Shown piece by piece: positions 14,483 to 33,010 of a stretch of 54,321 bases of DNA. The stretch is from a virus: the IMG/VR virus record IMGVR_UViG_3300044788_000028, positions 1 to 54,321 of that record; one strand, written 5' to 3'. The translations under genes were made by a program, and so were the position numbers. Below the pieces are notes generated by a model, which saw only the letters and a program-made list of their open reading frames with translations, was not told where the DNA came from and made no database searches. Numbering within the stretch: the first letter of the stretch is position 1; each line of letters begins with the position of its first letter.

Positions 14483-14632
14483 CTAGTCCCGGGGGTCCAT
14501 GAGGGTGGGGCGGTGTCCGTTCTGTGGTGGGGGGAGCGGCTTCCCCGTGTCCATGCGGTGCAGCATGTTGCTCACGCCCATACCCGCGAGCATGCCCAAA
14601 CAGAACATGACCAACAGGATCAGGTAGATCAT
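14483..14632 (-). CDS. Small membrane protein (49 aa)
   Basis: Hand translation gives MIYLILLVMFCLGMLAGMGVSNMLHRMDTGKPLPPPQNGHRPTLMDPRD. ATGA overlap upstream; its stop abuts the next ATG. Confidence 0.5.
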   Translation of the reverse strand: MIYLILLVMFCLGMLAGMGVSNMLHRMDTGKPLPPPQNGHRPTLMDPRD

Positions 14633-18831: not shown

Positions 18832-19268
18832 CAGACGCAACGCCTCCGTATATAGGACAAAAGAGCGCGCGCAATGATTGGATCTTCGTGTACTTGTCCG
18901 ACCGCGTGGTTACAATGGAAGCACAGCAACCCGCGTATTTTTCCTGTTGTATGGTTATGATCTACAGCGAGTCGATAAAGAGTACCGTGTGCAACCTTGG
19001 ACTCCGTGCGTTTGCAGATGGCACATACACCACGTTGACGTTGAAGAAGTTGATTGTACTGCACCAAGGACATCCCATACATAGCTCGCAGGTTCGCACC
19101 ACGCCATATATCAGGACGTGCTTTACGTCGGGAGAGAGCCCATGTGTTGTTTGCTTTCTTGCACCGCGCGCACCTGCATCCGCGAAGTGGATAGGTGTTT
19201 GGGTCAAACCAATACCGTCGAACGGTACCGTGTGGCGCGGGCGGTTTGGATGCTCTGCGTTTAGACAC
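18831..19268 (-). CDS. Endonuclease VII-type nuclease, paralog 3
   Basis: GTVRRYW...RGCRCARCKKA and CAIC...AVDHNHTTGKIRGLLCFHCN. Low-G+C island. Probable GTG start at 19268, overlapping the queE stop. Confidence 0.8.
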   Translation of the reverse strand: MSKRRASKPPAPHGTVRRYWFDPNTYPLRGCRCARCKKANNTWALSRRKARPDIWRGANLRAMYGMSLVQYNQLLQRQRGVCAICKRTESKVAHGTLYRLAVDHNHTTGKIRGLLCFHCNHAVGQVHEDPIIARALLSYIRRRCV

Positions 19269-20040
19269 CGAGGCGATTTCCCCAGATAAGGCAATGCAGT
19301 TGCGGGAGCACGCGTGTATCATACCATCCTTGCTCGAGGACCTTTTCAGCCAGCACTTTCAAACTACTCAACAACTCCCCGCGCTGACGGTCTAGTGCGG
19401 CGAAGTTCCCCAAGGACACTCCTTCGCGCACCGTCACGTCATCATTGCCGACTTGCAAGTAGAGCGGGACATCGTAGTGCACCGCCAGTTCGTGGACCTG
19501 CGCGGCGTACTCGAAGTCCTTCTTGAAGGCGTTGCCGGTGAACACAACCACCTTCAGGATGGTATCCTTCGGGCGGTAGCGGTAGCTCAGGCCGGATAGA
19601 GACCGCATCCCAAGCAACTCACCCAGCGTCGACCAGTTGGTTGTCATCCCGCTGCTCGGCGGCTTGGGACTGATACAGAGGTGGTCAAGCTGCGCCATCC
19701 AGTCATGGATGATTGAGCCCTGCGTTTCCATGGTGAAGGTGAACCCCTGCTGGTGCCCGAGGCGAATGAGTTCCTCACATCCGTTTTGCAGCGCAGGGTT
19801 GCCACCGCTCAGCGTGATGAGGATGGGTTGGTCACCAGTGAGACGGCAGACGTCCATGAGCACGTCTTCCGGTGGCATCTGCGTCCACTTGTGCCGGTGT
19901 TCCGGGAGCACCGCGTGCAGCGAGTCACACCACGAGCAGCGGTAGTCACACCCGCCGAGCCGCACGAAGACGGTGGGGCGCCCGATCATCGAACCTTCTC
20001 CTTGAATCGTTGGCCCAAACACCTCTGATACTCTCAGCAT
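19261..20040 (-). CDS. queE: 7-carboxy-7-deazaguanine synthase (radical SAM)
   Basis: FGPTIQGEG...FVRLGGCDYRCSWCDS radical-SAM cluster motif. 259 aa, a size typical of QueE. Confidence 0.85.
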   Translation of the reverse strand: MLRVSEVFGPTIQGEGSMIGRPTVFVRLGGCDYRCSWCDSLHAVLPEHRHKWTQMPPEDVLMDVCRLTGDQPILITLSGGNPALQNGCEELIRLGHQQGFTFTMETQGSIIHDWMAQLDHLCISPKPPSSGMTTNWSTLGELLGMRSLSGLSYRYRPKDTILKVVVFTGNAFKKDFEYAAQVHELAVHYDVPLYLQVGNDDVTVREGVSLGNFAALDRQRGELLSSLKVLAEKVLEQGWYDTRVLPQLHCLIWGNRLGV

Positions 20041-20462
20041 ATATTGTGTCTCTTGATATAGGTAAGAAGACCACTAAGGACAGCAGGATCGTCTCTTGCT
20101 GAGCCAAGTGCCATATTGCACAGCGTACAAAGAATCCCACGCACGGTACCAGTCGTATGGTCGTGGTCAACGGTAAGTCTTTCCTTGCTCTTGCACACGG
20201 CACAAGTCCCGCGCTGTTTGGCAAGTAGCAAGTTGTACTGTGCTAGTGTGATACCGTACAAAGTTTTCAGCCGCCACTTCCTGATTACATCAGGGGAAGG
20301 TTTCTTTCGTGGACGAACATTACGGTACCGTTTTTGCTTTTGGTACAAGGCGCGCCGATTGCGGCGACGGTAAACTTTGTGGTACACGGAACTTGCCACT
20401 TTACACGGGGAACATCTGCACCGACCATTTACATATCGGGAAATGGTGCCATGCTTAGACAT
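20034..20462 (-). CDS. Endonuclease VII-type nuclease, paralog 4
   Basis: MSKHGTISRYVNGRCRCSPCKVA and CAVC...TVDHDHTTGTVRGILCTLCN. Hand counts give about 42-53% G+C, versus about 63% in a terL stretch. Confidence 0.85.
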   Translation of the reverse strand: MSKHGTISRYVNGRCRCSPCKVASSVYHKVYRRRNRRALYQKQKRYRNVRPRKKPSPDVIRKWRLKTLYGITLAQYNLLLAKQRGTCAVCKSKERLTVDHDHTTGTVRGILCTLCNMALGSARDDPAVLSGLLTYIKRHNIC

Positions 20463-20718
20463 CGAGTTTGGGATAGAGGTTGGCGAGCCCGCCGGCGAGG
20501 GACTCGGTGACTTCGCGCCATGCGCCGGCGCGGACCTCCGCACGGCACCCCCGTTGTCCGGCGGGTGCCGTGTCGTCCTTGTAGAGCACGCGGTACGCGA
20601 TACCGTCAGGGGTGCGTCCCACGCTGTAGCAGATGTCGGTCATCTTCACGATACGCCCGGTGCCCAGCACCAGCAGCGTGCCGGGTTCAAGCTTGGGGTT
20701 ATCACTCAGCACGGTCAT
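20455..20718 (-). CDS. Hypothetical protein
   Basis: 87 aa from the ATG at 20718 (alternative ATG at 20730). No motif recognised. Confidence 0.45.
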   Translation of the reverse strand: MTVLSDNPKLEPGTLLVLGTGRIVKMTDICYSVGRTPDGIAYRVLYKDDTAPAGQRGCRAEVRAGAWREVTESLAGGLANLYPKLDV

Positions 20719-21181
20719 AGCGCCCTGCATTGTTGATGGCGTCGTGCGTGAAGGTGGCCCCACTGAGCGCCAGCGGGATCAACCACAACAGGTTCGGCAC
20801 CACGCCCCATCGCTCGAGGTCCCGCACGCGGAGGCGGGTGCACTGCTCATCGGTAACGGTCTGCACCCGCATGAACGTATCATAAGGCACGGTCATGGAG
20901 AAGAAATCCACACGCCACGGCTTGTCGCTCCCCACCTTCGGGTCAGTGCTGTTACCGATGGTCAGGAAGTAATCGTCGTGCGTCCATGACAGGTCGAGTC
21001 CGGTCTCCTCCCGGAACTCGCGGGTCATGGCCATCGCACCGCTCTCCCCCGGCTCTACCTTGCCCCCGATCCCGTTGAGCTTGCCGCGCTGCCACGACGG
21101 GCGCTGCTTGCGGATCAACCACACCTCGATGCCGTCAGGGTCATCCTCACAGAACAGGAACCCCACCACATAGCGGATCAT
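20702..21181 (-). CDS. NUDIX (MutT-like) hydrolase
   Basis: Nudix box GGKVEPGESGAMAMTREFREETGL (Gx5Ex7REUxEExGU). ATGA overlap with the clamp gene stop. Confidence 0.85.
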   Translation of the reverse strand: MIRYVVGFLFCEDDPDGIEVWLIRKQRPSWQRGKLNGIGGKVEPGESGAMAMTREFREETGLDLSWTHDDYFLTIGNSTDPKVGSDKPWRVDFFSMTVPYDTFMRVQTVTDEQCTRLRVRDLERWGVVPNLLWLIPLALSGATFTHDAINNAGRYDRAE

Positions 21182-22188
21182 GCGTGTCTCCCCAGCACCA
21201 CCCCGGTGAGCAGGCCGTCCTCACTGATGAAGCCGGCTGGCTTGGGGAACGCTGTCAGGTCGATGTACTTCGCCCGTGCGACCACGGGCGTCAGGAACTT
21301 TGGGGTCCACGAACTGGTGAACTCGGTGACACTGCCGATGCCCACGTCGAGCACGACGTGCGCACCTTCCTCCCCGCCCTCCATGGTGTCGTGCCCGATC
21401 TTGATGTGTTCGTTCTCGGGGGTCAGTTCCGTCAGCTGGTGATACGTATCCCGGAACTCCGGTGTGACCTCGAAGCTGCTCTCCGGGTCCGGCAGGTGCT
21501 TGTCCACGATCTCTGACGCAGCAGGGAACTCGCCGATGACCCCGGCACAGCGCACCCACGCGCCGTTATCCCAGCGAAAGAACCATGCGTGGTCCGCCAC
21601 GGCCCACTCCGTCAAGTGCTCGTGGTGTGAGGTGATGAAGTCGAACGCCCAGCGGGGGAGCAGCACGTCCATGTCCGCGACCGCCGGGTGCTGTACCTTG
21701 TACCGTCCGATGGCGACGTTGGTGGTCGCGATCAGGTACCCGCGTTGGAATCCGACGCACGTGGACCACACCCGTGCGGCGTTGGCGCCGATGAAGGGCT
21801 CGACTGCCCGCAACGCCGTCATCAACTCCTCGGTCCACGGGTGCCACGTCAGCGTCTGAAGCAGGGCGTCGTAGTCGTAGGGCCATGCGTCCCGGGGCAT
21901 GGTGGCGAAGGTGCAGCGCAGCTTGCCCGCCTTGAGCACCGCCTGCGTCGCGCTGGTGGGCCACGTCAGGGTCATCGCGCGGTCAGGACCCACGCTGACG
22001 AGGACCTTCTGCAAGGGCGCGCCGGGGAGCAGGGCAGCAGGGCCGCCGTAGTCCACGGGGTGCACCGCACACACGTTGCCGTCGGTCGCCGCCATACGCC
22101 CCGGCTCGAGCATGAAGTGGCTAAGCGCGGGCACCACGCCCTTGGTGGTCAGCGCGTCCTTGAGCCAGCTTACCGCCCGTAGCATCAT
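21178..22188 (-). CDS. DNA polymerase III beta sliding-clamp-like protein
   Basis: Segments align by eye with E. coli DnaN: GRMAATDGNVCAV; GKLRCTFATMPRDAWP versus GRSRFSLSTLPAADFP; LIATTNVAIGRY versus TVATDGHRLAV; VIGEFPAASEIV versus VDGRFPDYRRVL. Confidence 0.8.
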   Translation of the reverse strand: MMLRAVSWLKDALTTKGVVPALSHFMLEPGRMAATDGNVCAVHPVDYGGPAALLPGAPLQKVLVSVGPDRAMTLTWPTSATQAVLKAGKLRCTFATMPRDAWPYDYDALLQTLTWHPWTEELMTALRAVEPFIGANAARVWSTCVGFQRGYLIATTNVAIGRYKVQHPAVADMDVLLPRWAFDFITSHHEHLTEWAVADHAWFFRWDNGAWVRCAGVIGEFPAASEIVDKHLPDPESSFEVTPEFRDTYHQLTELTPENEHIKIGHDTMEGGEEGAHVVLDVGIGSVTEFTSSWTPKFLTPVVARAKYIDLTAFPKPAGFISEDGLLTGVVLGRHA

Positions 22189-22325
22189 GGTGCTTCCTCC
22201 TGTGCCTTCGCGATCGCCGCCTTCGCGGCTATCTTGCCGTACCGCGCCAGCATCTCCGCGTACAGCGCGCCGTCCTTGGTGCGCACGCAGATTGCCGCGT
22301 CATGCTCGAGGTCGCCCGTGGTCAT
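22185..22325 (-). CDS. Small hypothetical protein (46 aa)
   Basis: Hand translation gives MTTGDLEHDAAICVRTKDGALYAEMLARYGKIAAKAAIAKAQEEAP. ATGA overlaps with both dpdA and the clamp gene. Confidence 0.5.
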   Translation of the reverse strand: MTTGDLEHDAAICVRTKDGALYAEMLARYGKIAAKAAIAKAQEEAP

Positions 22326-23209
22326 AGGTCGAAGGTGGATTGCCGTTTGGTGAACCGCTCCACGCCCTTGGTTTCGAAGGAGCGATAGGTGCGGGCACAG
22401 ACCAGCTGACGGGGATGATGATGTGCAGCAAGGTCGGCCGCGGCGTACCCGTGCTTCGCCAGTGCCGCGTCGACCTCTGCCTTCTGGAGTTCCGGCATGG
22501 TGTTGTAGTGGGAGCCCTGCAAGTCGCGCGCACTCGGACTCTGTGGACTGAACGAGACGAGGAGTATCTTACCACTCGACACTTCGATGAGGGCGTTGCC
22601 GAACGCTGCGATCTGTAACCACGAGCTGGAGTCGACGCTGTACCACGGGAACGCGCGCATCAGGGAAAAGGTGGTCATGCCGAACCCGTGGACCTTGGTG
22701 TACGGTTTGCCCTCCTCATCCGTAGCGATGTCCCACGCGGTCTCCAACCACTCCTTGCGGTGCACACCGGGCACGCCGACGAGTCCCCCGAAGGCCATAT
22801 ACTCCACCTCGTGGCACATCCGCTTGAGCACACTCCACGCCTCCCCATAATGGAACGTGGGGATCGCTTTGATGCCAGCGTCCCGCATGGTGCAGTACGC
22901 CTCCCACGTCGCTACGTCATCCCCGATGACATCGAGCGCGGCAACCACGGTCCAGAACTCCGCCGTGCTTTGGCAGTAGTCCATGAACTTCGCCAAGCTG
23001 ATCGTCTCCCCCTTGGCCTTGGCACTGAACGCCCCGCAGTCGAGGAACAGGTCCATGCCCATCTCCCGCATGGTCAGCACGTCGCGGGTGGGTTGGTTCT
23101 CGTTGCTGTACCCGTGGTAGTAATACGACATCAGTCGGCGGGAGAGGTGGACACCCACACTCTGCTCCCACGCCGCCGTGCCCTGCTCACCTGCCAAGTA
23201 CACCCTCAC
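22322..23209 (-). CDS. dpdA: DpdA-family DNA guanine transglycosylase (7-deazaguanine insertion into DNA)
   Basis: RLMSYYYH, FLDCGAFS, LDVIGDD, MAFGGLVG and YSVDSSSW match the phage DpdA / TGT-like pattern (from memory). GTG at 23209 forms a GTGA overlap with the queD stop. The upstream part of the track ORF was discarded. Confidence 0.8.
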   Translation of the reverse strand: MRVYLAGEQGTAAWEQSVGVHLSRRLMSYYYHGYSNENQPTRDVLTMREMGMDLFLDCGAFSAKAKGETISLAKFMDYCQSTAEFWTVVAALDVIGDDVATWEAYCTMRDAGIKAIPTFHYGEAWSVLKRMCHEVEYMAFGGLVGVPGVHRKEWLETAWDIATDEEGKPYTKVHGFGMTTFSLMRAFPWYSVDSSSWLQIAAFGNALIEVSSGKILLVSFSPQSPSARDLQGSHYNTMPELQKAEVDAALAKHGYAAADLAAHHHPRQLVCARTYRSFETKGVERFTKRQSTFDL

Positions 23210-23742
23210 GCGCGCTTCCCATACTTGCGAGTGATGTGCGACGGGGGGATGTAATCGGCGTAGCAGTTGGGTGTCTCCCACACCCGCACCTTCGTCAACC
23301 ACACCTTGCCAGCAGTCAGCTTGCGCACGGTGGCGTCGACCATCGTGTACCACACGTGAGCCAAGTGCTCTGCCGTGGGCACCACGTCCAACAGTACAAC
23401 CTTTCCTACGTTCAGCCCCTGCGTGACACGCAGGCGGTACTTGGGTCGTGTAACGCTGACCCCGAACCATTGTGTCGCCAGCGGGTCCTTGTACCAGAGG
23501 CACAGCGCGTGGTCGAAGTTGACGTCGATGCAGTCCATCATCGCGTCCTTCAGTACCCCGAAGTCCGTGACCATGCCCTGCTCAGCACCCTGCTTGACCA
23601 GCGACAGGGTGGTCGCCGTGGCTTCGATCAGGTAGCGGTGCCCGTGCACGTTGCGGCACTTGCTGGCATGGTTGGTCACGCGATGGCCCATGTCGATGCC
23701 GATCTGCCGGGTGATCTCGACTCGTCCGTTGGGTGATGTCAT
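23206..23742 (-). CDS. queD: 6-carboxy-5,6,7,8-tetrahydropterin synthase
   Basis: IDMGHRVTNHASKCRNVHGHRY matches the PTPS/QueD catalytic Cys-His motif. 178 aa. Confidence 0.85.
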   Translation of the reverse strand: MTSPNGRVEITRQIGIDMGHRVTNHASKCRNVHGHRYLIEATATTLSLVKQGAEQGMVTDFGVLKDAMMDCIDVNFDHALCLWYKDPLATQWFGVSVTRPKYRLRVTQGLNVGKVVLLDVVPTAEHLAHVWYTMVDATVRKLTAGKVWLTKVRVWETPNCYADYIPPSHITRKYGKRA

Positions 23743-24116
23743 TGGTGTCTCCGAAGATATATTAGTGCTGATTTTACAACGCGCCTACTATCTCGCAAGC
23801 TGCCAAGACCTTGATTACACGCGGTGCACAGCAACCCGCGAATGCGTCCTGTTTTATGGCTATGATCAACGGCAAGATTGCGTCCATTTCCACGGCGCTC
23901 AGGTTTGTGGCACACTGCACAAACACCGCCCTGCTTTTTCAACAGCACCGCATATTGTTCCGGTGTGATACCAAAGGCGCGCAACAGGTGTGCCCCGTGC
24001 CGTTGTTTAGGAACGCGCTTATGATACGCAGCATCGTACGCAGCGCGTGCCCGCTTGCATGGCCAGCACCGGCAACCCTGCACGTATCTGGAAGCTGTAC
24101 CGTGCGCGGAAGCCAT
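23739..24116 (-). CDS. Endonuclease VII-type nuclease, paralog 5
   Basis: MASAHGTASRYVQGCRCWPCKRA and CAVC...AVDHSHKTGRIRGLLCTACN. Low-G+C island. It starts 1 nt after the folE stop and ends in an ATGA overlap with queD. Confidence 0.85.
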   Translation of the reverse strand: MASAHGTASRYVQGCRCWPCKRARAAYDAAYHKRVPKQRHGAHLLRAFGITPEQYAVLLKKQGGVCAVCHKPERRGNGRNLAVDHSHKTGRIRGLLCTACNQGLGSLRDSRRVVKSALIYLRRHQ

Positions 24117-24117
24117 T

Positions 24118-25074
24118 TTATTTTGCGTCCCGACACAAGCCAATGAATTCAGCGCGGGCGGCAGCATCGGTCTGCAATACCCCCCGCACAGCTGAGGTAG
24201 TCGTCAAGCTGCCGTGTATCTTCACACCGCGAGAAGACATGCACATATGTGCTGCACGCACCAGTACGCCCACACCAAGCGGAGCAACGTGCGTGACAAG
24301 CGCGTCGGCAATCTGTGTGGTCATACGCTCCTGCACTTGCAACCGCCGAGAAAAAAGGTCCACGAGGCGGGCCAGCTTCGACAATCCCACGATTTTCCCG
24401 TTGGGGATATATCCGACGTGCGCCACCCCATGGATGGGGGCGAGGTGGTGCTCACAGTAGCTCACGACCGGAATGTTGTGTACGATCACCATCTGATTGT
24501 AGTCGGCGCTGCCGTCCGCGAACGACTTGAGCACGTCCTTCGGGTCTTGCCCGTACCCACTCCCCCACTCGCGCCACGCCTTGATGACGCGCGCCGGCGT
24601 CTCCCGCAGTCCTTCTCGGGTGGGGTCGTCGCCGATGTATTGTATCAGGCGGGTCACGATGTCGTGCGCGCTGTTGTCGTTGCCCGCTTCCTCTACCTCC
24701 CACGGGAACACCAGCCACGTCCCGTGCGGGTAGGTCCCTTCTACGATGTCGCAACCCGCCGGGACCTTCTGGAGCAGGGCTACGAAGTGGGCGCCCCGAT
24801 ACTTTTCGTAGTAGCGTAGACGCGTGGCGCCTGAGTCAATCAGGTCGTCCACAAACACATCCGCGGCGTCCGGGTCGTCCGTCATGGTCGCGAAGACGTT
24901 TTCGTTCCGGAACGCCGCCATGACCAGCGCTGCCGCCGCGATCCCGCCGCGCGGGATGCCGTAGAGCTTCAGGTGCTTGGTGCGCAGGGTGGGCAGGTCG
25001 AAGGTACGCACCACACGCTCCGCACAGTCCTGCAACTCCCGCAGGGTGAGCATAACCATGTTAGGCATGCGCAC
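24118..25074 (-). CDS. folE: Fusion protein: Gpt-like purine phosphoribosyltransferase domain plus GTP cyclohydrolase I
   Basis: N-terminal half: YGIPRGGIAAAALV, PRPP loop VFVDDLIDSGATR, AHFVALLQKVPAG and TWLVFPWE. C-terminal half: SYCEHHLAPIHG, GKIVGLSKLARLV and RRLQVQERMT (FolE). The start is GTG 25074 or ATG 25068. Confidence 0.8.
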   Translation of the reverse strand: MRMPNMVMLTLRELQDCAERVVRTFDLPTLRTKHLKLYGIPRGGIAAAALVMAAFRNENVFATMTDDPDAADVFVDDLIDSGATRLRYYEKYRGAHFVALLQKVPAGCDIVEGTYPHGTWLVFPWEVEEAGNDNSAHDIVTRLIQYIGDDPTREGLRETPARVIKAWREWGSGYGQDPKDVLKSFADGSADYNQMVIVHNIPVVSYCEHHLAPIHGVAHVGYIPNGKIVGLSKLARLVDLFSRRLQVQERMTTQIADALVTHVAPLGVGVLVRAAHMCMSSRGVKIHGSLTTTSAVRGVLQTDAAARAEFIGLCRDAK

Positions 25075-25936
25075 CGTCCGCTTGCCTGTCGGTACGAAGG
25101 AAGACGTGGAGACCCGCTACCCACGGGCTCAGGTATCCATCTTGCGCGTCCGCCTTCAGGTACTCGAGGGCACCGCGCAACGCCTCGGGATGGTAGTTGT
25201 TGGTCGTAGGCAGTGCCATCACTCCTTCTGCCGCCGCACGCAGCACCAGCGGGTCGGGGAGATCCGCGTCCACGAACCCCTGCGCCCGTAGGAGGGTCGC
25301 GTGGTCGTGCCCGGTGGGCGGGTACGCCCCGTCATACGCGGTGTGGGTGTACGCGAGGGCGCTGTACGCACCGGGGGTGGCACACGCCAGCCGCACCGTT
25401 TGCGCCTTGGAGTGGAACATCAGCGGAGTGTGGATACGGAACACCCCGTCACGCAGTCCCAGCGCCTTGGTGATGGCGTGCTCCTGTGCCACCACGAACT
25501 CGAGGCGGCAGTCCGGATAGTTGGCGTTATCTGCTTCGCACACCCCGGTGATCAGGTCGTAGCAGTCCAGTGCCACGGCACGGTTCGCGGCCAACGTCAG
25601 GAAGAAGGCGTTCCGCATGGGCACGAACGTCAACTCGACACGGTCGCCGATGACAGTCGCCATCTGTTGAGCGTCCGCGTATTGCTCAAGGACCTGCGTG
25701 GGGTCGGTGAGCGGGCTGCGGCTGCGCAGGACACCGGGCACGCCGACACTTTGTACGTCAACCCCAGCGCGCGCGGCCACGACGGACGCGGCGTCAAGCT
25801 CTCGACTGTGCCGCTGTCCGTAGTTGACGACCAGCGCATGGACCGGGGAGAAGCGGGACAGCGCCCAATACAAGCAGGTGGTGCTATCCTGCCCACCCGA
25901 TAGCACGACGAGGGCGGGAGACTGGTCCTTTGTCAT
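25061..25936 (-). CDS. queC: 7-cyano-7-deazaguanine synthase-like protein lacking the Zn-Cys cluster, with a C-terminal extension
   Basis: ALVVLSGGQDSTTCLYWAL (PP-loop), NYGQRHSREL, ITGVCEADNANYPDCRLEFV. Where E. coli QueC has CYNG...[10 protein letters not shown], this protein reads AYDGAYPPTGHDHATLLRAQGF. ATG at 25936 (ATGA overlap). Confidence 0.8.
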   Translation of the reverse strand: MTKDQSPALVVLSGGQDSTTCLYWALSRFSPVHALVVNYGQRHSRELDAASVVAARAGVDVQSVGVPGVLRSRSPLTDPTQVLEQYADAQQMATVIGDRVELTFVPMRNAFFLTLAANRAVALDCYDLITGVCEADNANYPDCRLEFVVAQEHAITKALGLRDGVFRIHTPLMFHSKAQTVRLACATPGAYSALAYTHTAYDGAYPPTGHDHATLLRAQGFVDADLPDPLVLRAAAEGVMALPTTNNYHPEALRGALEYLKADAQDGYLSPWVAGLHVFLRTDRQADGAHA

Positions 25937-26361
25937 TGATGTTTCCTGATGTAGTTGGTGAGGTGCTTTGCCGTGGTGTGATTGTCGCCGACACAACCCA
26001 CCGCGCGGTTGCACTTGGCACACAGCAAACCACGCGTCTTTCCTGTTGCGTGGTTATGATCAACAGCAAGGCGTATTTTACGTGGTGGTTCTAAGCACAC
26101 TGCACAGACCCCGCGCTGTTGTTCAAGCAGGGATTCATACTGCGTGATTGTCAGACCATACAATCGTTTCAGACGCGCTTTACGCGGCATGTGTGGATTA
26201 CGACGCCGGTAATCAGCCATCCGTTTGGTTGCTGCTTTTCGACACACACCACAGCGGCAGCCGCGTGTATATCGAAAGTTACTGTGCGGTATCCCTAAAA
26301 CACCAAGGCCCCTCCGCTGTTGCAGAGGGGCGTTGGTGTTTTGTCGGCGAACGCGCATCAC
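25933..26361 (-). CDS. Endonuclease VII-type nuclease, paralog 6
   Basis: NFRYTRGCRCGVCRKA and CAVC...AVDHNHATGKTRGLLCAKCN. Low-G+C island. Stop-start overlaps at both ends. Confidence 0.85.
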   Translation of the reverse strand: MMRVRRQNTNAPLQQRRGLGVLGIPHSNFRYTRGCRCGVCRKAATKRMADYRRRNPHMPRKARLKRLYGLTITQYESLLEQQRGVCAVCLEPPRKIRLAVDHNHATGKTRGLLCAKCNRAVGCVGDNHTTAKHLTNYIRKHQ

Positions 26362-27107: not shown

Positions 27108-28655
27108 TTACGCGGCCACGGCCTTTTCCGCCGGCTTGCCCCCGAGGACGGCGACCTCGTACAGCACGGACTTGGCGCGGGTGACCGCGACATACATCAG
27201 GTTGATCTCCTGCTGGACCTGCCACGCCTGCCGGGCGTACTTGCTGGGCATGTACTTGTTCCGCCCCAGCAGGTACACCCGCTCCCACTCCCGCCCCTTC
27301 GCCTTGTGGACGGTGCTCAGCGTGAGCGTGTCCGCCGGGCGCCCGCTGTCCGTGTCGGTAAACAGGCGGTCGATTTCCGCCCGCAGGTCGTCTACCGTGC
27401 TCCCGGGGGGAAGCGCGTTGCAGAGCACCCGGAGGGTGTCCACACGGTCGCTGATGCTGGCTGCCTGCGACTCGCGCCCCTTCGCCATCAACCGCGACAC
27501 CTCGCGCTCCTCATATGCGTCCAGCTTGGTGAGCAGGGCGTCCAGCGACCGCAGCTTCCATTTCCCCGCGAGGGCCAGCAACCCCTTGCCGATATCCCGT
27601 CCCTCGACGTGGCAGGCCACCTTGCGCTTGATCAAGCTGTACGCCAGCTCGACCAGTGGCTTGGTGTTCCGGCACAGCACCGCGTCCTCCTTGCGGAGCA
27701 TCCCTTGCACGGCGAAGTCGTCGAGCACCACGTCGGTGATCATGGTCACCTCCCCCTCGGGTGCCACGGGGGCGGCTTCGATGTGGCTGACCCACTGCTG
27801 CGCGTGGGCGACCACCGCCTTGGGGCAACGGTAGGTCACGGTCAACGGGAGCACGGTGCAGTTGAACTCCCGTGTGATGAGGTCGAGGGCGTCGCTGTCC
27901 GCCCCGGTGAACCCGTAGATGGCCTGATGGGTGTCGCCCACCGCGATCAAGCGGCCCCCGGTCTTCAGGAGCTTGCGTGCCATCGCCCGGCGTGCCGGGT
28001 TGGTGTCCTGCGCCTCGTCGACCAACACCCAATCGTAGGTCTGGAAGCGGGCGTTGTGGACCAGCGGTGCGTACAGCATGTCGTCGAAGTCGATGATCTC
28101 GTGGTCCCGGGCCGTGGACTCCCGCAGCACTCGCTGCGCCAGCACCAGCCCGGTGTCGATGTCAGAGTCCATGCTCGCGTCACTGCTCCCGTCGTCGGTG
28201 AGCAGGTCGTCGAGGTCGTAGTGGTTGACCAACTGCATCCATGAGCTCATGTCCCCGGCCGGGCTGTCCACCCCGATGAGCGCCTGCTTGGCGATGCTCA
28301 CCGCCCGCTGCACGAACCGTCGCAGGCCCTTCGGCACCGCGAGGTCGTCGCAGATCATGTCCAGCTTCTTGTCCTCCACCTTCACGCGGTACGCCACGCG
28401 GCGCCACGCGCGGAAGCCGAACGAGTGAAACGTGCCTGCGGTCACGTTGGGGTTGCTACGGGTCCGTGACCCGATCTCCACGGCGATATTCTTGTTGTAC
28501 GCGAGGAACGCGACCGTACCCTCCATCATGCTGGTGGCTTCGACGAGCGTGGTGGTCTTACCGCTCCCCGCCACCGCCTCGATGCGGGCGCACCCTGTCC
28601 CGGTGCGTACCCACCCGAAGACGGCTTGCTGCTGGGGACTCCAGATCCGTGTCAT
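27108..28655 (-). CDS. UvrD/Rep-family SF1 helicase (copy 1)
   Basis: AVAGSGKTTT (motif I), VLVDEAQDT (II), GDTHQAIYGFTGA (III), STVHKAKGREWERVYLL, YVAVTRAK. ATG at 28655 with GGAGG upstream. The N-terminal extension of the track ORF was discarded. Confidence 0.85.
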   Translation of the reverse strand: MTRIWSPQQQAVFGWVRTGTGCARIEAVAGSGKTTTLVEATSMMEGTVAFLAYNKNIAVEIGSRTRSNPNVTAGTFHSFGFRAWRRVAYRVKVEDKKLDMICDDLAVPKGLRRFVQRAVSIAKQALIGVDSPAGDMSSWMQLVNHYDLDDLLTDDGSSDASMDSDIDTGLVLAQRVLRESTARDHEIIDFDDMLYAPLVHNARFQTYDWVLVDEAQDTNPARRAMARKLLKTGGRLIAVGDTHQAIYGFTGADSDALDLITREFNCTVLPLTVTYRCPKAVVAHAQQWVSHIEAAPVAPEGEVTMITDVVLDDFAVQGMLRKEDAVLCRNTKPLVELAYSLIKRKVACHVEGRDIGKGLLALAGKWKLRSLDALLTKLDAYEEREVSRLMAKGRESQAASISDRVDTLRVLCNALPPGSTVDDLRAEIDRLFTDTDSGRPADTLTLSTVHKAKGREWERVYLLGRNKYMPSKYARQAWQVQQEINLMYVAVTRAKSVLYEVAVLGGKPAEKAVAA

Positions 28656-28657
28656 GG

Positions 28658-29086
28658 TCAGGTGCCTCCGGTTGGGGCAAGGCCGCAGAGGGGCGCGGCG
28701 TACAACGGGAACGCGAAGCCGGGGTGTGTGCCGGCAGGCCAAAGGCGCATGTGCGCCATCTCGTGCGTGATGGTGGGGGCGTCCAGCCGGCGTACCCATA
28801 TCGCGTTGAGGCTGGGGTTCACCGCGCCGAACGGGTCGTCCAACTGGTCCCACCCCTTCGGGGCATGGTACCCCACGAACACCCGCGTCCCGCGCCACGC
28901 GGTGTCCCCCGTCAGGCACGTCGCGGCCTTGGTCCACCACGCGACCACGCTGTCCGGAACGACCGTCAGTTCGCGCGTGGGGCGCAGGGCTGTGCCCCAC
29001 TCGGTGAGCGGTGGGGTGGTCTCGGCCGCCGCCGTGACCACGAGGAACACCGCCAACCCTACCACCATCTTGCCTTGCCGTGTCAT
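28658..29086 (-). CDS. Small secreted or membrane-anchored protein with HExxH motif
   Basis: 142 aa from the ATG at 29086. N-terminal MVVGLAVFLVVTAAA signal/anchor segment and ITHEMAHMRLW. Confidence 0.55.
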   Translation of the reverse strand: MTRQGKMVVGLAVFLVVTAAAETTPPLTEWGTALRPTRELTVVPDSVVAWWTKAATCLTGDTAWRGTRVFVGYHAPKGWDQLDDPFGAVNPSLNAIWVRRLDAPTITHEMAHMRLWPAGTHPGFAFPLYAAPLCGLAPTGGT

Positions 29087-31454: not shown

Positions 31455-32948
31455 TTAGAAGCGCCATGCCCGCTCTGATACGGGGGACACCAGCACCAAC
31501 CGCTCCCGGGCGCGGGTGACCCCCACGTACTGCACCCGTAGCTCTGCGTCCGGTTCACGCTGTGCCCCGGCTTCGACGCGCTGCGTGATGTCTGTTAGCA
31601 AGGCGACATGATCGGCCTGCGCCCCCTTCGCCCCGTGTACCGTGCTGATACGCACGCGCCCCGGCTTGGTCAGGGACTCCCCGCGCTGGCGGAGTTCGCG
31701 GATGTACAGCATGTCATCGGGGTTCATGTGTTCGCAGGCATCATACCATTGGGTTGCCCGGTCGAACCCCGGTGCAAGGACATGCTCCCACGCACACAAC
31801 TCCGGGAGGTACTCGACCGCGATGTCGGTACGTACCCCGTGCGGCAGGAAGGGGAGCAGCGTGCGGACCTCCGCACGGGGTACCCCGTTGCCGCGTTGGA
31901 GATGGAAGTAGGCCATCGCCGCGCGCACCGCCGGCAACGCCCATGACCAGCGCCCGTCCGGCAACTGATAGACCACACCCTGCTGCCGGGCCATCGCGCG
32001 CCATCCGGCAAGCTGCGCATTCGTCCGTGCCAGCAGCAACCACTCTCCTTCTCGCACGTCCACGTACTCGGTACCCGTGACCCACTCGACCACACCCTCC
32101 GCGTCCCGGGGGGCGTACACCTTCGGGGTGCGTTGGTGCATCCGTGCCGTGACCCCGTCTGCTAGTCGCTTGATGCTGCGGGGGAGGCGGAAGCTCACCG
32201 GCAAGACCCGGCGCTCCCCGCGTACCCGTTGCAGGAAATCCACGTCAGCGCCTGACCAGTGGTAGACGGCTTGGTCGTCGTCACCGGCGATGATCAGTCT
32301 ACAGTCCGCCGGGAGAATGCGCCGCAGCAGCGACCACTGTGCCGTCGAGGTGTCCTGTGCTTCGTCGAGGTAGAGCACGTCCACGTCAAGCGTGCCCCCG
32401 GTGTCCGCGATCATGTCACTGAAGTCCGTGAGCGCGTTGCGCTGCTTGAACGTGGCGTAGTCCGCGGCCAGTCGTTCGACGTACTCCCATTCGAGATCCG
32501 GTAACTGCGCGGTATCCCATTCGTGATAGAGGGAGGTTTCCCGTGCCGCGGCCAGTCCCAGCAACGAGAGCACGCGGTCGGCGAAGGTGCCTTCGTCCAC
32601 GTCATAGATGGGCGGGGCAGTCCCGTCATCGGTGGGGTCCACGCGGGGGGCTGCCGCGCTGAAGGCCTCCCCCATCGCCGCGCCGAACTGGTGCAGGTGG
32701 ACAGGGCCGAGCACGTCGCTGCGCGTCAACTCCGCCAGCTTGAACGCCGTGGCGTGGATGGTCTTGAAGTAGGGGAGGTCGCCCCGCGCCACACGGTTCA
32801 CCGCTTCCCGTATCGCGCGCCGGGAAAAGCTCACGAACGCGAGGCGCTCCGGGGCGACCCCGTGCTCGAGGTCGTGGTGCACCATGCGCAGCAGGGTTTC
32901 CGTCTTGCCGGTCCCCGGTGGCCCTAGCACCAACTGCACGTCGCGCAT
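31455..32948 (-). CDS. UvrD/Rep-family SF1 helicase (copy 2)
   Basis: VLGPPGTGKTET (I), LYLDEAQD (II), AGDDDQAVY (III), TVHGAKGAQADHVALL, YVGVTRARE. ATG at 32948. The N-terminal extension of the track ORF was discarded. Confidence 0.85.
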   Translation of the reverse strand: MRDVQLVLGPPGTGKTETLLRMVHHDLEHGVAPERLAFVSFSRRAIREAVNRVARGDLPYFKTIHATAFKLAELTRSDVLGPVHLHQFGAAMGEAFSAAAPRVDPTDDGTAPPIYDVDEGTFADRVLSLLGLAAARETSLYHEWDTAQLPDLEWEYVERLAADYATFKQRNALTDFSDMIADTGGTLDVDVLYLDEAQDTSTAQWSLLRRILPADCRLIIAGDDDQAVYHWSGADVDFLQRVRGERRVLPVSFRLPRSIKRLADGVTARMHQRTPKVYAPRDAEGVVEWVTGTEYVDVREGEWLLLARTNAQLAGWRAMARQQGVVYQLPDGRWSWALPAVRAAMAYFHLQRGNGVPRAEVRTLLPFLPHGVRTDIAVEYLPELCAWEHVLAPGFDRATQWYDACEHMNPDDMLYIRELRQRGESLTKPGRVRISTVHGAKGAQADHVALLTDITQRVEAGAQREPDAELRVQYVGVTRARERLVLVSPVSERAWRF

Positions 32949-32968
32949 CTTGGTGTCTAGACGGGAGT

Positions 32969-32992
32969 GGATTGTTCGCTGGTGAACAATCC
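32969..32992 (-). other. 9-bp stem-loop between the primase and helicase genes
   Basis: ggattgttc / gctggt / gaacaatcc read directly. A GTCTAGAC octamer lies 7 nt away at 32955-32962. Confidence 0.5.
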
Positions 32993-33010
32993 ACGCGTCG
33001 CATCTTGCAT

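What the first reader, a model, noticed from the sequence alone, without database searches (positions are those of the whole stretch)
24118..25074. Gpt-like guanine phosphoribosyltransferase fused to GTP cyclohydrolase I inside a dpdA/preQ0 cluster: possible guanine-recycling loop
The 318-aa ORF has two halves.

Residues ~1-135 carry type-I PRTase hallmarks laid out as in xanthine-guanine PRTase: YGIPRGGIAAAALV, the PRPP loop VFVDDLIDSGATR, AHFVALLQKVPAG and TWLVFPWE. I align these from memory with E. coli Gpt (VSRGGLVPGALLA, VIDDLVDTGGT, AHFVTIFAKPAG, TWIEQPWD). Residues ~140-318 are canonical FolE (SYCEHHLAP, GKIVGLSKLARLV, RLQVQERMT).

DpdA-type transglycosylases release one free guanine per base they exchange. 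A Gpt domain fused to the first enzyme of the preQ0 pathway could convert that guanine plus PRPP into GMP, and so via GTP back into FolE substrate. This would close a salvage loop. Alternatively, it could ribosylate a 7-deazapurine base to make a nucleotide-level precursor.

I am not aware of this fusion being described for phage 7-deazaguanine systems.
Basis: partly seen in the sequence, partly recalled or inferred. Interest (0 to 1): 0.8.

Follow-up and report, generated by a model that had tools for sequence, protein, structure and literature searches.

The report
Guanine-salvage-like enzyme fused to phage FolE
This phage gene joins a stripped-down copy of the bacterial guanine-salvage enzyme Gpt to the first enzyme of the pathway that makes modified guanine for phage DNA. 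The same pairing turns up, unremarked, in hundreds of phages that rewrite the G in their DNA.

Summary
Window 24118..25074 (-) is one uninterrupted gene. Residues about 1-130 form a Gpt-like type I phosphoribosyltransferase (PRT) domain and residues 139-314 a complete GTP cyclohydrolase I (FolE). It lies in a queC / PRT-folE / queD / dpdA / clamp / queE cluster of a 54-kb phage contig.

The fusion is not unique. All 153 distinct related IMG/VR loci inspected carry the PRT inside a folE/que cluster, fused to FolE in all but one. Cultured Pseudomonas, Vibrio, Stenotrophomonas and other phages have it too, labelled only "GTP cyclohydrolase I".

The domain is a shortened Gpt. It lacks the flexible catalytic loop but keeps the PPi loop, the PRPP motif and the Gpt base-contact residues at 89-100% across 273 members.

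Stand-alone Gpt-like PRTs were found in 29 of 50,697 phage records. The 27 that belong to named phages are all 7-deazaguanine phages, including all three lineages with complete G replacement. Four phages with 16-32% replacement have none.

Favoured mechanism: guanine released by DpdA is recycled through GMP and GTP to FolE (about 0.4). Main rival: a TubE/ToyH-like PRT that ribosylates the 7-deazaguanine base (about 0.3). No activity has been tested. I found no description of the fusion in the searchable literature.

The parts
24118..25074 (-). PRT-FolE fusion gene. It is 318 aa from the first GTG; the likely true start is ATG 25053, giving 311 aa.
   Evidence: Continuous ORF. The identical 311-aa product was called by JGI on this contig. 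The two domains are fused in one ORF in 152 of the 153 distinct related IMG/VR loci.
24685..25074 (-). N-terminal mini-Gpt domain, residues 1-130: a type I PRT fold without flexible loop II.
   Evidence: NF006613 2.5e-7, phrog_8995 2.8e-8 and PDB XGPRT 7e-7. Profile against PDB XPRT 1.3e-9. The family HMM aligns to Gpt 1-140 with a 17-residue stretch plus 3 further residues absent from the beta2/loop region. In the AF2 model (pLDDT 95.3) the domain is alternating strands and helices. BFVD Foldseek hits phage and viral PRTs at probability 1.0.
24943..24954 (-). PPi-binding loop P41-R42-G43-G44, equivalent to Gpt S36-R37-G38-G39.
   Evidence: Conserved at 93-99% in 273 unique family members. Alignment to Gpt.
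24823..24852 (-). PRPP-binding motif V75-D-D-L-I-D-S-G-A-T84, equivalent to Gpt I87-DDLVDTGGT96. It includes D80, the equivalent of Gpt D92.
   Evidence: D76 and D77 are 100% conserved, D80 98%, S81 95%, G82 99% and T84 99%.
24697..24768 (-). Hood / base-binding segment K103...W120-L-V-F-P-W-E126. K103 corresponds to Gpt K115, W120 to W134 and E126 to D140. Residues 108-115 are a Gpt-like longer loop that most relatives lack.
   Evidence: K103 is 89% conserved, W120 98% and F123/P124/W125/E126 about 97%. Residues 108-115 are present in fewer than 25% of members. Pairwise alignment with XGPRT.
24133..24660 (-). GTP cyclohydrolase I (FolE) domain, residues 139-314.
   Evidence: PF01227 at 230 bits. 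TIGR00063 at 207 bits, above its cutoff. Foldseek against M. tuberculosis, human and T. thermophilus FolE gives TM 0.9.
24445..24456 (-). FolE zinc/catalytic motif C207-E-H-H210. The second zinc Cys lies in H276-M-C278 at 24226-24249.
   Evidence: Read from the sequence. The residue roles come from established knowledge of E. coli FolE (C110/H112/H113/C181).
25061..25936 (-). queC, with likely start ATG 25936. There is no Gat domain.
   Evidence: PF06508 2.4e-46. Start codon and RBS.
23206..23742 (-). queD (CPH4 synthase).
   Evidence: PF01242 2e-26.
22322..23209 (-). dpdA (DNA guanine transglycosylase, 9g/iggy type).
   Evidence: phrog_887 5.4e-49. Syntenic with DpdA in related loci. Start position.
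19261..20040 (-). queE (radical SAM CDG synthase).
   Evidence: PF04055/PF13353. Homologous to QueE of related loci.
21178..22188 (-). DNA polymerase processivity factor (sliding clamp), conserved next to dpdA in this phage group.
   Evidence: phrog_947 7.3e-30. Synteny.

Best explanation
The ORF encodes one bifunctional enzyme. [quoted passage not shown] The N-terminal half is a shortened relative of bacterial xanthine-guanine PRTase (Gpt). It retains every motif needed to bind PRPP, PPi/Mg and a 6-oxopurine, but has lost the flexible loop.

Proposed mechanism:
1. DpdA swaps preQ0 into phage DNA and releases one free guanine per exchange.
2. The PRT domain condenses that guanine with PRPP to give GMP.
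3. Host Gmk and Ndk raise GMP to GTP.
4. The FolE half feeds GTP back into preQ0 synthesis.

The loop makes the modification nearly purine-neutral. It also removes guanine, which would otherwise compete with preQ0 for the DpdA-DNA intermediate.

Shown: the one-gene architecture, the homology and residue conservation of both halves, the cluster context, and the phage-wide association of Gpt-like PRTs with 7-deazaguanine genes.

Inferred: catalytic activity, guanine as the substrate, and the loop itself.
For: Architecture and homology.

Residues expected for catalysis on a 6-oxopurine are conserved at 89-100% in 273 unique members. These are R42, D76, D77, D80 (the Gpt D92 equivalent, which contacts N7), K103, W120 and E126.

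The fusion or adjacency is always with FolE, the GTP consumer:
- 152 of the 153 distinct IMG/VR loci have PRT and FolE fused; the remaining one has them as adjacent genes.
- PRT and folE are neighbouring genes in Flavobacterium phage immuto_2-6A and Brevundimonas phage MaInes.

Most fused loci also carry a DpdA within the fetched flanks. DpdA needs the free deazaguanine base and releases guanine.

The domain is dispensable for the chemistry. 9g, CAjan, iggy and Rosebush modify 16-32% of G with no PRT anywhere in their genomes. That fits an economy role rather than a core biosynthetic role.

This 54-kb phage showed no ribonucleotide reductase or NMP kinase among the ORFs I annotated. GMP therefore fits host enzymes better than a deazaguanine nucleotide would.

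Stand-alone members occur beside nucleotide-metabolism genes, with no que genes within 8-10 kb. They keep the same conserved residues, which argues for an ordinary purine substrate.

Scale (my estimate): the genome has 34,805 G. At 16-32% replacement and a burst of 100, that is about 0.6-1.1 million guanines per cell, comparable to a bacterial GTP pool.
Against: - No biochemistry exists for any member.
- The flexible loop thought to shield the transition state in 6-oxopurine PRTs is missing.
- The window protein does not reach Pfam or NCBIfam curated thresholds for PRT families.
- GMP to GTP needs two host steps, so the fusion gives no direct channelling.
- Hosts usually have their own Gpt or Hpt.
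- The only PRT from a FolE/QueD/QueE cluster that has been assayed (TubE) uses a 7-deazaguanine base, not guanine.
- Stand-alone relatives are found in exactly the phages with complete G replacement, for which a nucleotide-level route has been proposed.
- Conservation of the guanine-face contacts cannot tell guanine from preQ0 or CDG, because both share O6, N1 and N2.
Confidence: 0.4

Rival explanations
1. Deazapurine PRTase. The domain condenses the pathway's own base (preQ0, or CDG/ADG) with PRPP to make a 7-deazaguanine ribonucleotide, as TubE and ToyH do in tubercidin and toyocamycin biosynthesis. This would open a nucleotide-level route (NMP, NDP, dNDP, dNTP, then the DNA polymerase) that supplements or replaces DpdA base exchange and allows very high replacement.
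For: - TubE, a purine-type PRT encoded with GCH-I, QueD and QueE homologues, was shown in vitro to be a CDG-specific PRPP transferase. ToyH is its homologue in the toyocamycin cluster.
- tblastn with the phiST PRT finds only 34 of 50,697 phage records. They are Cellulophaga phiST-type (dDG), Campylobacter Firehammervirus (dADG), Flavobacterium immuto (fdPreQ1), Brevundimonas MaInes-type, Synechococcus BUCT-ZZ01, five Vibrio fusions and two uncultured records.
- All three lineages reported to have complete G replacement carry a PRT. Four phages with 16-32% replacement carry none, on six-frame HMM scans of the whole genomes.
- ADG nucleoside was seen in CP220-infected cells, and a modified-dGTP route has been proposed for those phages.
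- In MaInes the PRT sits in a run of ribonucleotide reductase, dNMP kinase, FolE and PRT.
- The window has a Nudix gene in its cluster, as the tubercidin cluster has TubG.
Against: - A DpdA, which needs the free base, is detected in most fused loci. A PRT that consumed the base would compete with it.
- D80 is 98% conserved. It is the equivalent of the Asp that contacts purine N7, an atom 7-deazapurines lack.
- The domain is fused or adjacent to FolE, not to QueC, QueE or kinases.
- The small fused-type phages lack ribonucleotide reductase and kinases.
- The Nudix gene is not conserved in the other 80 loci.
- Sequence relatedness to TubE and ToyH could not be tested because their sequences are not held.
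Confidence: 0.3
2. General purine-salvage auxiliary gene. The PRT boosts the guanylate pool from any free purine, for example bases released by nucleoside deoxyribosyltransferase-like or N-glycosidase enzymes or by host turnover. It has no specific link to DpdA-released guanine, and the fusion to FolE only reflects a shared need for GTP.
For: - Stand-alone mini-PRTs lie next to ThyX, dCMP deaminase, DHFR, Nuc_deoxyrib_tr and YfbR-like HD genes, with no que or dpdA within 8-10 kb.
- The window itself encodes a DUF4406 (deoxyribosyltransferase-like) + DUF6378 protein at 14629-15417.
Against: - Among cultured phages, every lineage I inspected that has a Gpt-like PRT also has folE/queD/queE genes.
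- Only 8-10 kb around the 'que-less' stand-alone genes could be read, and phiST and MaInes show that clusters can be split by 8-17 kb.
Confidence: 0.12
3. Non-catalytic ligand-binding domain. The loop-less PRT fold only binds PRPP, GMP, guanine or (p)ppGpp and regulates the FolE decamer allosterically, as PurR- and PyrR-type PRT folds act in regulation.
For: - The catalytic flexible loop is missing.
- The AF2 model places the two domains confidently relative to each other, with pTM 0.86.
- The first FolE helix (D138..R142..Q145) is conserved together with the PRT domain, even in stand-alone forms.
Against: - Stand-alone and unfused versions exist with the same invariant residues and no FolE attached.
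- The full catalytic set, including the N7-contacting Asp and the Mg/PPi ligands, is 89-100% conserved.
- Other loop-less stand-alone phage PRTs exist, namely immuto gp211 and Campylobacter F379_164.
Confidence: 0.08
4. Artefact: two separate genes joined by an assembly or sequencing error, or a chance resemblance to Gpt.
For: One related locus has PRT and FolE as adjacent separate ORFs (L144). RefSeq annotates PaMx25 as two genes.
Against: - 152 of 153 independent viral loci and all of the top 120 database homologues are single ORFs of about 300 aa.
- The PaMx25 split is an annotation error in the wrong frame.
- Profile E-values to Gpt reach 1e-9 to 1e-15.
Confidence: 0.01

Closest known systems
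E. coli xanthine-guanine phosphoribosyltransferase Gpt (XGPRT; PDB 1NUL, 1A95-98; NCBIfam NF006613)
   Same: Best structural and sequence relative of the N-domain. The shared features are the SRGG/PRGG PPi loop, the DDL(V/I)D(T/S)G-x-T PRPP motif, AHFV...K-PAG and W-x-x-x-P-W-(D/E). The equivalents of Gpt R37, D88/D89, D92, K115, W134 and D140 are all conserved.
   Different: About 20 residues are missing from the beta2/flexible-loop region. In most relatives a further 10 hood residues are also missing, though the window protein keeps these. It scores 30 bits against a family cutoff of 138. It is fused to FolE, is essentially restricted to phages, and has no measured activity.
GTP cyclohydrolase I FolE (PF01227, TIGR00063)
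   Same: The C-terminal half is a full-length, above-threshold FolE with its zinc and catalytic residues and TM 0.9 to solved FolE structures. It plays the same role as the plain FolE of phages 9g, CAjan and iggy.
   Different: It carries an N-terminal domain of about 130 aa that the FolE of 9g (204 aa), CAjan (196 aa), iggy (207 aa) and Rosebush (191 aa) lacks.
TubE (tubercidin) and ToyH (toyocamycin) phosphoribosylpyrophosphate transferases of Streptomyces deazapurine nucleoside clusters
   Same: They are purine-type PRTs encoded together with GCH-I, QueD and QueE homologues. TubE has been shown to act in a 7-deazaguanine pathway, and the tubercidin cluster also contains a Nudix enzyme, as the window does.
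   Different: They are stand-alone proteins of 194 aa in antibiotic clusters that have no DNA transglycosylase. The TubE substrate is CDG, not guanine. Homology to the phage domain beyond the shared PRT superfamily was not tested.
Stand-alone 'phosphoribosyl transferase' genes of 7-deazaguanine phages: Cellulophaga phiST CGPG_00045, Flavobacterium immuto_2-6A gp211, Campylobacter CP220/F379_164, Brevundimonas MaInes_00780, Synechococcus BUCT-ZZ01
   Same: They belong to the same Gpt-like group: they share the W-x-x-(F/Y)-P-W-(E/D) ending and score 27-60 bits on the family HMM. They sit in or near folE/queD/queE clusters. immuto gp211 lies directly upstream of folE, in the same order as in the fusion, and it too lacks the flexible loop.
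   Different: They are separate genes. phiST, MaInes and BUCT-ZZ01 keep the long loop. phiST, immuto and the Campylobacter phages have complete G replacement and (phiST, immuto) a DpdA3-type transglycosylase, whereas the window has a 9g-type DpdA.
Gat-QueC (glutamine amidotransferase fused to QueC in phage 9g and relatives)
   Same: It is another case in which a phage 7-deazaguanine pathway enzyme has acquired an extra catalytic domain by fusion. Some PRT-FolE phages also carry Gat-QueC (PaMx25, L023, L054).
   Different: The domains and the step are different. Gat-QueC changes the final product (dG+), whereas the PRT domain is not needed for any known step.

Membership tests
Type I phosphoribosyltransferase fold (Pfam PF00156 Pribosyltran) | PRPP-binding motif: hydrophobic strand, two acidic residues, then small residues ending in Thr | tested here: met
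   V73-F-V-D76-D77-L-I-D-S-G-A-T84. D76/D77 are 100% and T84 99% conserved in 273 members.
Type I phosphoribosyltransferase fold (Pfam PF00156 Pribosyltran) | Score above the Pfam gathering threshold | tested here: not met
   The window protein gives no PF00156 hit at E<=1. 36 of 97 relatives hit at E<=0.01, best 5e-7. Five close homologues carry a precomputed PF00156 assignment.
Type I phosphoribosyltransferase fold (Pfam PF00156 Pribosyltran) | Alpha/beta core with a PPi loop after the first core strand | tested here: met
   AF2 model (pLDDT 95.3): E35-39, PRGG loop, H43-57, E62-64, E73-79, H83-91, E96-104. Foldseek against BFVD hits phage and giant-virus PRTs at probability 1.0.
Type I phosphoribosyltransferase fold (Pfam PF00156 Pribosyltran) | Flexible catalytic loop (loop II) between core strands 2 and 3 | tested here: not met
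   A 17-residue stretch plus 3 further residues of Gpt (roughly 54-70 and just before the PRPP motif) have no counterpart.
Xanthine-guanine PRTase Gpt (NCBIfam NF006613 equivalog) | Score above the curated equivalog cutoff (138 bits) | tested here: not met
   30.4 bits, E 2.5e-7, covering only residues 60-129.
Xanthine-guanine PRTase Gpt (NCBIfam NF006613 equivalog) | 6-oxopurine-binding residues: Lys to O6, aromatic stacking, Asp to N7, acidic residue after P-W | tested here: met
   K103 (89%), W120 (98%), D80 (98%) and E126 (97%) align with Gpt K115, W134, D92 and D140. The residue roles come from my knowledge of the XGPRT and HGPRT structures and were not re-derived here.
Xanthine-guanine PRTase Gpt (NCBIfam NF006613 equivalog) | Guanine/xanthine + PRPP gives the NMP | not testable with these tools
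   This needs an enzyme assay or genetic complementation.
GTP cyclohydrolase I FolE (PF01227 / TIGR00063) | Score above curated cutoffs over the full-length domain | tested here: met
   PF01227 at 230.5 bits (cutoff 27), covering profile positions 4-178 of 179. TIGR00063 at 207 bits (cutoff 181.6).
GTP cyclohydrolase I FolE (PF01227 / TIGR00063) | Zinc ligands and catalytic His (C-E-H-H ... H-x-C), and the fold | tested here: met
   C207-E-H-H210 and H276-M-C278. TM 0.88-0.93 to solved FolE structures.
Phage DpdA / preQ0 DNA-modification cluster | Co-encoded FolE, QueD, QueE, QueC and a DpdA transglycosylase | tested here: met
   All five lie within 19261-25936 on one strand. The same set is present in related loci.
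Phage DpdA / preQ0 DNA-modification cluster | 7-deazaguanine actually present in virion DNA | not testable with these tools
   This is a metagenomic contig. No PRT-FolE phage appears in the modification tables of the papers read.
TubE/ToyH-type 7-deazapurine PRTase | PRT encoded with GCH-I, QueD and QueE homologues | tested here: met
   Window cluster. tub and toy cluster composition.
TubE/ToyH-type 7-deazapurine PRTase | Specific sequence relationship to TubE or ToyH | not tested
TubE/ToyH-type 7-deazapurine PRTase | CDG or preQ0 + PRPP gives the nucleotide | not testable with these tools
   This needs an enzyme assay.

The most novel reading that the evidence does not exclude
Gpt-like PRTases are a missing, general component of phage 7-deazaguanine DNA systems, and they work on the deazaguanine base itself. 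By making preQ0, CDG or ADG ribonucleotides, they would open a replication-coupled, nucleotide-pool route to modified DNA that runs alongside DpdA base exchange. That route would be what allows complete replacement of G. PRT-FolE phages such as this one, NP1, PaMx25 and VpKK5 would then have far higher replacement than the 16-32% seen in PRT-less 9g, CAjan, iggy and Rosebush. This would contradict the current view that insertion is always post-replicative.
Probability: 0.3. Interest if true: 0.85.

Novelty: new variant of a known kind. Interest (0 to 1): 0.66.

Why it matters
Phage 7-deazaguanine DNA modification is currently described as FolE, QueD, QueE and QueC plus a DpdA transglycosylase and tailoring enzymes. 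Nothing in that scheme deals with the guanine that base exchange throws away. Nothing in it explains how some phages reach 100% replacement either.

A conserved Gpt-like PRT is fused to FolE in hundreds of phages. It stands alone in every lineage so far known to replace all its G. That makes it a concrete candidate for one of these two gaps: a purine-recycling loop, or entry of the modified base into the nucleotide pool.

Either outcome would add a step to a pathway that matters for phage evasion of restriction and CRISPR. It can be tested directly, because cultured phages (NP1, PaMx25, Quinobequin-P09, VpKK5, phiST, immuto, CP220) carry the gene.

There are two further returns. The domain would be about the smallest type I PRTase known, at roughly 115-125 residues with no flexible loop. 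The result also corrects database annotation, since all members are labelled only "GTP cyclohydrolase I" and PaMx25 is mis-split.

Tried and rejected
- Single-sequence AlphaFold gave an unusable model, with pLDDT 34. It was repeated with a 97-sequence alignment.
- Foldseek against the PDB returned only FolE structures in the 50 rows shown. The model cannot be cropped, so I have no PDB fold ranking for the N-domain.
- Megablast of the region against 50,697 phage records found nothing.
- tblastn with the N-domain alone found only 7 Vibrio records, so it badly understates the distribution.
- The first word-indexed protein search found only 7 relatives. The exhaustive HMMER search was needed.
- I looked for a PRT-FolE phage with measured modification levels. 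Iggy, 9g, CAjan and Rosebush all turned out to have plain FolE, so no measured phage carries the fusion.
- I considered that PaMx25 and NP1-type phages have a frameshifted or split PRT, because tblastn hits start at residue 78 and RefSeq shows two genes. I rejected this: a 297-aa in-frame ORF exists, and the annotated 'gp38' is in the wrong frame.
- I considered the window's Nudix gene as a conserved partner, by analogy with TubG. I rejected this: it is absent from the other 80 loci.
- The genome-contig scan gave only 11 MAG loci, mostly the same phage cluster, so there is no evidence for a cellular origin of the fusion.
- Crippen 2019 (PMC6854489) and the MMBR 2024 review (PMC10966956) could not be read. 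A mention of the PRT in either cannot be excluded.
- The TubE and ToyH sequences were not obtainable, so no direct comparison was made.
Full report
**1. The observation**

Window 24118..25074 (minus strand) is a single ORF of 318 aa with no internal stop.

The C-terminal half is an unambiguous FolE:
- Pfam GTP_cyclohydroI scores 1.2e-68 over residues 139-314.
- TIGR00063 scores 207 bits against a cutoff of 181.6.
- PHROG 2197 also matches.
- The C207-E-H-H210 and H276-M-C278 motifs are intact.
- The AlphaFold model superposes on M. tuberculosis, human and T. thermophilus FolE at TM about 0.9.

The N-terminal half is weaker on single-sequence searches but clear with profiles:
- It does not hit Pfam Pribosyltran at E<=1.
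- It hits NCBIfam xanthine PRT at 2.5e-7, PHROG 8995 'phosphoribosyl transferase' at 2.8e-8 and the E. coli XGPRT crystal structures at 7e-7.
- A profile of eight relatives hits XPRT/XGPRT structures at 1.3e-9.
- A family HMM aligns end to end with the real E. coli Gpt (residues 1-140, 42 bits).
- 36 of 97 relatives hit PF00156 at E<=0.01.

With a 97-sequence alignment the AlphaFold model is confident (pLDDT 95.3, pTM 0.86). It shows an alternating strand/helix domain before the first FolE helix. Against predicted viral structures the model matches 'phosphoribosyl transferase' proteins at probability 1.0.

The likely true start is ATG 25053, giving 311 aa. That is the product JGI called on this very 54,321-bp contig (P0152). 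It begins just after the queC stop.

**2. Surroundings**

Almost all genes of the contig are on the minus strand, and it carries terminase, DNA polymerase A, helicases, primase and clamp genes. It is therefore a phage of the Queuovirinae type.

The cluster reads, in the direction of transcription:
- an EndoVII-like ORF
- queC (25061-25936)
- PRT-folE
- an EndoVII-like ORF
- queD (23206-23742)
- dpdA (22322-23209)
- clamp (21178-22188)
- Nudix (20702-21181)
- an EndoVII-like ORF
- queE (19261-20040)

QueC has no Gat domain, so the predicted product is dPreQ0 or a close derivative.

**3. The fusion is common, not unique**

tblastn finds full-length matches in several groups of cultured phages:
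- Vibrio phages 1.207.B and VpKK5.
- Stenotrophomonas, Variovorax and Sphingomonas phages.
- The Pseudomonas NP1/PaMx25/Quinobequin/JG054 group.

All are annotated just 'GTP cyclohydrolase'.

In PaMx25, RefSeq splits the gene into a wrong-frame 'hypothetical protein' and a 191-aa folE. A 297-aa in-frame fusion ORF is in fact present.

Two scans of IMG/VR each confirmed more than 300 viral contigs:
- All 81 loci of the first analysis (80 from IMG/VR plus Vibrio phage 1.207.B) have PRT and FolE in one ORF inside a queE-queC-queD-[PRT-folE]-dpdA-clamp cluster.
- 72 of the 73 new IMG/VR loci from the second scan are also fused.
- The one exception (L144) has PRT and FolE as adjacent separate genes.

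An exhaustive HMMER search of 1.84 billion representative proteins found 3,262 relatives at E<=1e-3 and 700 at E<=1e-10. The top 120 full-length homologues are all fusions of about 300 aa, named 'GTP cyclohydrolase I' where named at all.

One genome per species across 185,579 species gave only 11 loci. All are in MAGs and most carry the same phage cluster. The family is essentially phage-restricted.

**4. Anatomy of the N-domain**

Relative to Gpt, the family lacks a 17-residue stretch plus 3 further residues in the second core strand and flexible catalytic loop. Most members also lack about 10 residues of the hood. The window protein keeps a longer, Gpt-like hood (K-V-P-A-G-C-D-I-V-E-G-T-Y-P-H-G-T-W); residues 108-115 are present in fewer than a quarter of members.

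Across 273 unique members, conservation is as follows:

| Residue(s) | Conservation |
|---|---|
| P41 | 97% |
| R42 | 93% |
| G43, G44 | 99% |
| A71 | 97% |
| D76, D77 | 100% |
| D80 | 98% |
| S81 | 95% |
| G82 | 99% |
| T84 | 99% |
| K103 | 89% |
| W120 | 98% |
| F123-P124-W125-E126 | about 97% |

By alignment these correspond to Gpt residues as follows:
- R42 to R37 (PPi)
- D76/D77 to D88/D89 (Mg/ribose)
- D80 to D92 (N7 contact)
- S81-T84 to T93-T96 (5'-phosphate)
- K103 to K115 (O6)
- W120 to W134 (stacking)
- E126 to D140

The residue roles come from my knowledge of the XGPRT and HGPRT structures.

Such conservation at a mean column identity of 23% indicates selection for chemistry, not just for a fold.

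Stand-alone versions of about 130-160 aa exist with the same invariant residues. They also keep the first 'FolE' helix (D..R..Q) and one further helix. This suggests they descend from fusions and that the PRT module has a function of its own.

**5. A wider association found on the way**

The viral fold search pointed to the 142-aa 'phosphoribosyl transferase' of Cellulophaga phage phiST. That protein is intermediate between Gpt and the mini-domain: it keeps the long loop but ends in W-I-V-F-P-W-E.

tblastn with it against 50,697 phage records finds only 34 records:
- 5 Cellulophaga records of the phiST type
- 15 Campylobacter Firehammervirus records
- 4 Flavobacterium 'immuto' records
- 2 Brevundimonas records
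- 1 Synechococcus record
- 5 Vibrio PRT-FolE fusions
- 2 uncultured phage records

Every lineage I inspected is a 7-deazaguanine phage:
- phiST carries folE-queE-queD-dpdL-dpdA3.
- immuto_2-6A has queD-queE-..-PRT-folE-..-dpdA-dpdN-tmk-queF.
- F379's gene is even annotated 'purine phosphoribosyltransferase / queuosine biosynthesis protein'.
- MaInes has ribonucleotide reductase, dNMP kinase, folE and XPRT in a run, with queE/queD/queC 8 kb away.
- BUCT-ZZ01 has queE-XGPRT-x-queD-folE.

The immuto and Campylobacter proteins also lack the flexible loop.

According to the literature, phiST (dDG), Campylobacter CP220-type (dADG) and immuto (fdPreQ1) are the lineages with complete G replacement.

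Six-frame HMM scans of the complete genomes of 9g, CAjan, iggy and Rosebush find no PRT. These phages have about 25%, 32%, 16.5% and 28% of G replaced. Their best scores are <=10 bits. phiST, MaInes and the window score 59-152 bits.

So 3 of 3 complete-replacement lineages have a PRT, against 0 of 4 partial-replacement phages. The sample is small and not phylogenetically independent, but it is suggestive.

None of the three key open-access papers mentions a PRT. Ten full-text searches found no description of the association. Two relevant papers were not readable.

**6. Mechanism**

Two readings fit the data.

*(i) Guanine recycling (favoured, about 0.4).* DpdA releases one guanine per exchange. 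The PRT converts guanine plus PRPP to GMP, host kinases make GTP, and the fused FolE recommits it.

In favour:
- The domain is Gpt-like, down to the Asp that contacts N7.
- Its partner by fusion or adjacency is always the GTP-consuming FolE.
- A DpdA, which needs the free deazaguanine base, is present in most fused loci.
- The domain is dispensable in PRT-less relatives, as expected for an economy function.
- This small phage shows no ribonucleotide reductase or kinase among the ORFs I annotated to process an unusual nucleotide.
- Stand-alone members sit among ordinary nucleotide-metabolism genes.
- The flux is not trivial. With 34,805 G per genome, 16-32% replacement and a burst of 100, about a million guanines are released per cell. 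This estimate is mine.
- The need grows with the fraction replaced, which would explain the correlation in section 5.

*(ii) Deazapurine PRTase (about 0.3).* TubE is a purine-type PRT encoded with GCH-I, QueD and QueE homologues. It was shown in vitro to be a CDG-specific PRPP transferase, and ToyH is its toyocamycin counterpart. By analogy the phage PRT would make deazaguanine nucleotides for polymerase incorporation.

In favour:
- This would explain complete replacement.
- It would explain the ADG nucleoside seen in CP220-infected cells.
- It would fit the earlier proposal of a modified dGTP route.

Against:
- It competes with DpdA for the base.
- The N7-contacting Asp is conserved.
- The domain is linked to FolE rather than to late enzymes.

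*Lesser rivals.* These are a general salvage gene (0.12), a non-catalytic regulatory domain (0.08) and an artefact (0.01).

Sequence analysis cannot separate (i) from (ii), because guanine and preQ0/CDG present the same O6/N1/N2 face.

**7. Comparison and novelty**

Both domains belong to known superfamilies. PRTs inside deazapurine gene clusters are known from Streptomyces antibiotics.

What appears new:
- the PRT-FolE architecture
- the loop-less mini-Gpt subfamily
- the recognition that Gpt-like PRTs accompany phage 7-deazaguanine DNA systems

I therefore rate this a new variant of a known kind. I do not file the N-domain as a Gpt equivalog. It fails the curated score, and a defining structural element, the flexible loop, was tested and is absent. 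It does share the fold and the active-site residues, so 'works like a purine PRT' remains the best functional statement.

**8. Verdict**

The mechanism is unresolved between two interesting options. Interest is 0.66.

Noticed in passing
window 20034-20543, 23739-24167, 25933-26361 (all minus strand): Three paralogous Endonuclease VII-domain ORFs (PF02945, 1e-19 to 2e-24) are interspersed between the deazaguanine genes. Their GC3 is 0.50-0.54, against 0.72-0.85 for the neighbouring genes. They look like recently acquired free-standing homing endonucleases, and they may explain why the gene order here differs from the usual queE-queC-queD-folE-dpdA.
   Followed up: partly
window 20702-21181 (-): A Nudix hydrolase gene lies between the clamp gene and queE, inside the modification cluster. 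The tubercidin cluster also pairs a PRT (TubE) with a Nudix (TubG). However, this Nudix was not detected in the other 80 related loci. Its substrate is unknown.
   Followed up: partly
window 14629-15417 (-): A 262-aa protein combines DUF4406 (nucleoside 2-deoxyribosyltransferase-like; phrog_355) with DUF6378. Genes with Nuc_deoxyrib_tr, DUF6378 and YfbR-like HD domains also accompany the stand-alone mini-PRTs in L161 and L176/L177. This may be a second source of free purine base that a PRT could salvage.
   Followed up: no
L084 4757-5687 (Pseudomonas phage PaMx25, NC_041953.1 gp38/gp37): RefSeq annotates a wrong-frame 124-aa 'hypothetical protein' plus a 191-aa folE. A single 297-aa PRT-FolE ORF (L084 4794-5687) actually exists there. 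All fusion genes seen in GenBank and JGI are named only 'GTP cyclohydrolase I'.
   Followed up: yes
proteins P0015 (583 aa), P0070 (582 aa), P0057/P0088/P0091/P0128 (about 340 aa), P0020 (363 aa): Some family members carry large insertions between the PRT domain and the C-terminal part of FolE. The roughly 330-aa ones may be inteins. P0020 shows two PRT-like stretches.
   Followed up: no
L082 8914-12455; L173 480-6134; L144 7298-8329: Variant architectures exist. L082 has queD-queE-PRT(130 aa)-x-dpdA-clamp with no FolE or QueC nearby. L173 has queC..queE..PRT-(270 aa)-folE as separate genes. L144 has PRT and FolE as adjacent ORFs. L058 and L060 have queD-queE-PRT-FolE with no QueC or DpdA detectable within 7-8 kb, which would be a CDG-type pathway as in phiST or tubercidin.
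   Followed up: partly
L163 7905-8810 (Dehalococcoidia MAG chromosome OZ241375.1): A PRT-FolE fusion sits in a 2.7-Mb chromosome-level MAG with no que or dpdA genes detected within 8 kb. It could be a prophage remnant or a rare cellular copy.
   Followed up: no
window 25061-25936 (-): QueC has a C-terminal extension of roughly 70 residues beyond the PF06508 domain (domain residues 37-252 of the 320-aa ORF), with no family match. The iggy paper reports a similar unexplained extension in that phage's QueC.
   Followed up: no
window 27108-29000 and 31455-33158 (-): Two paralogous helicase genes of the same PHROG (1967) lie 2.5 kb apart in the replication module.
   Followed up: no
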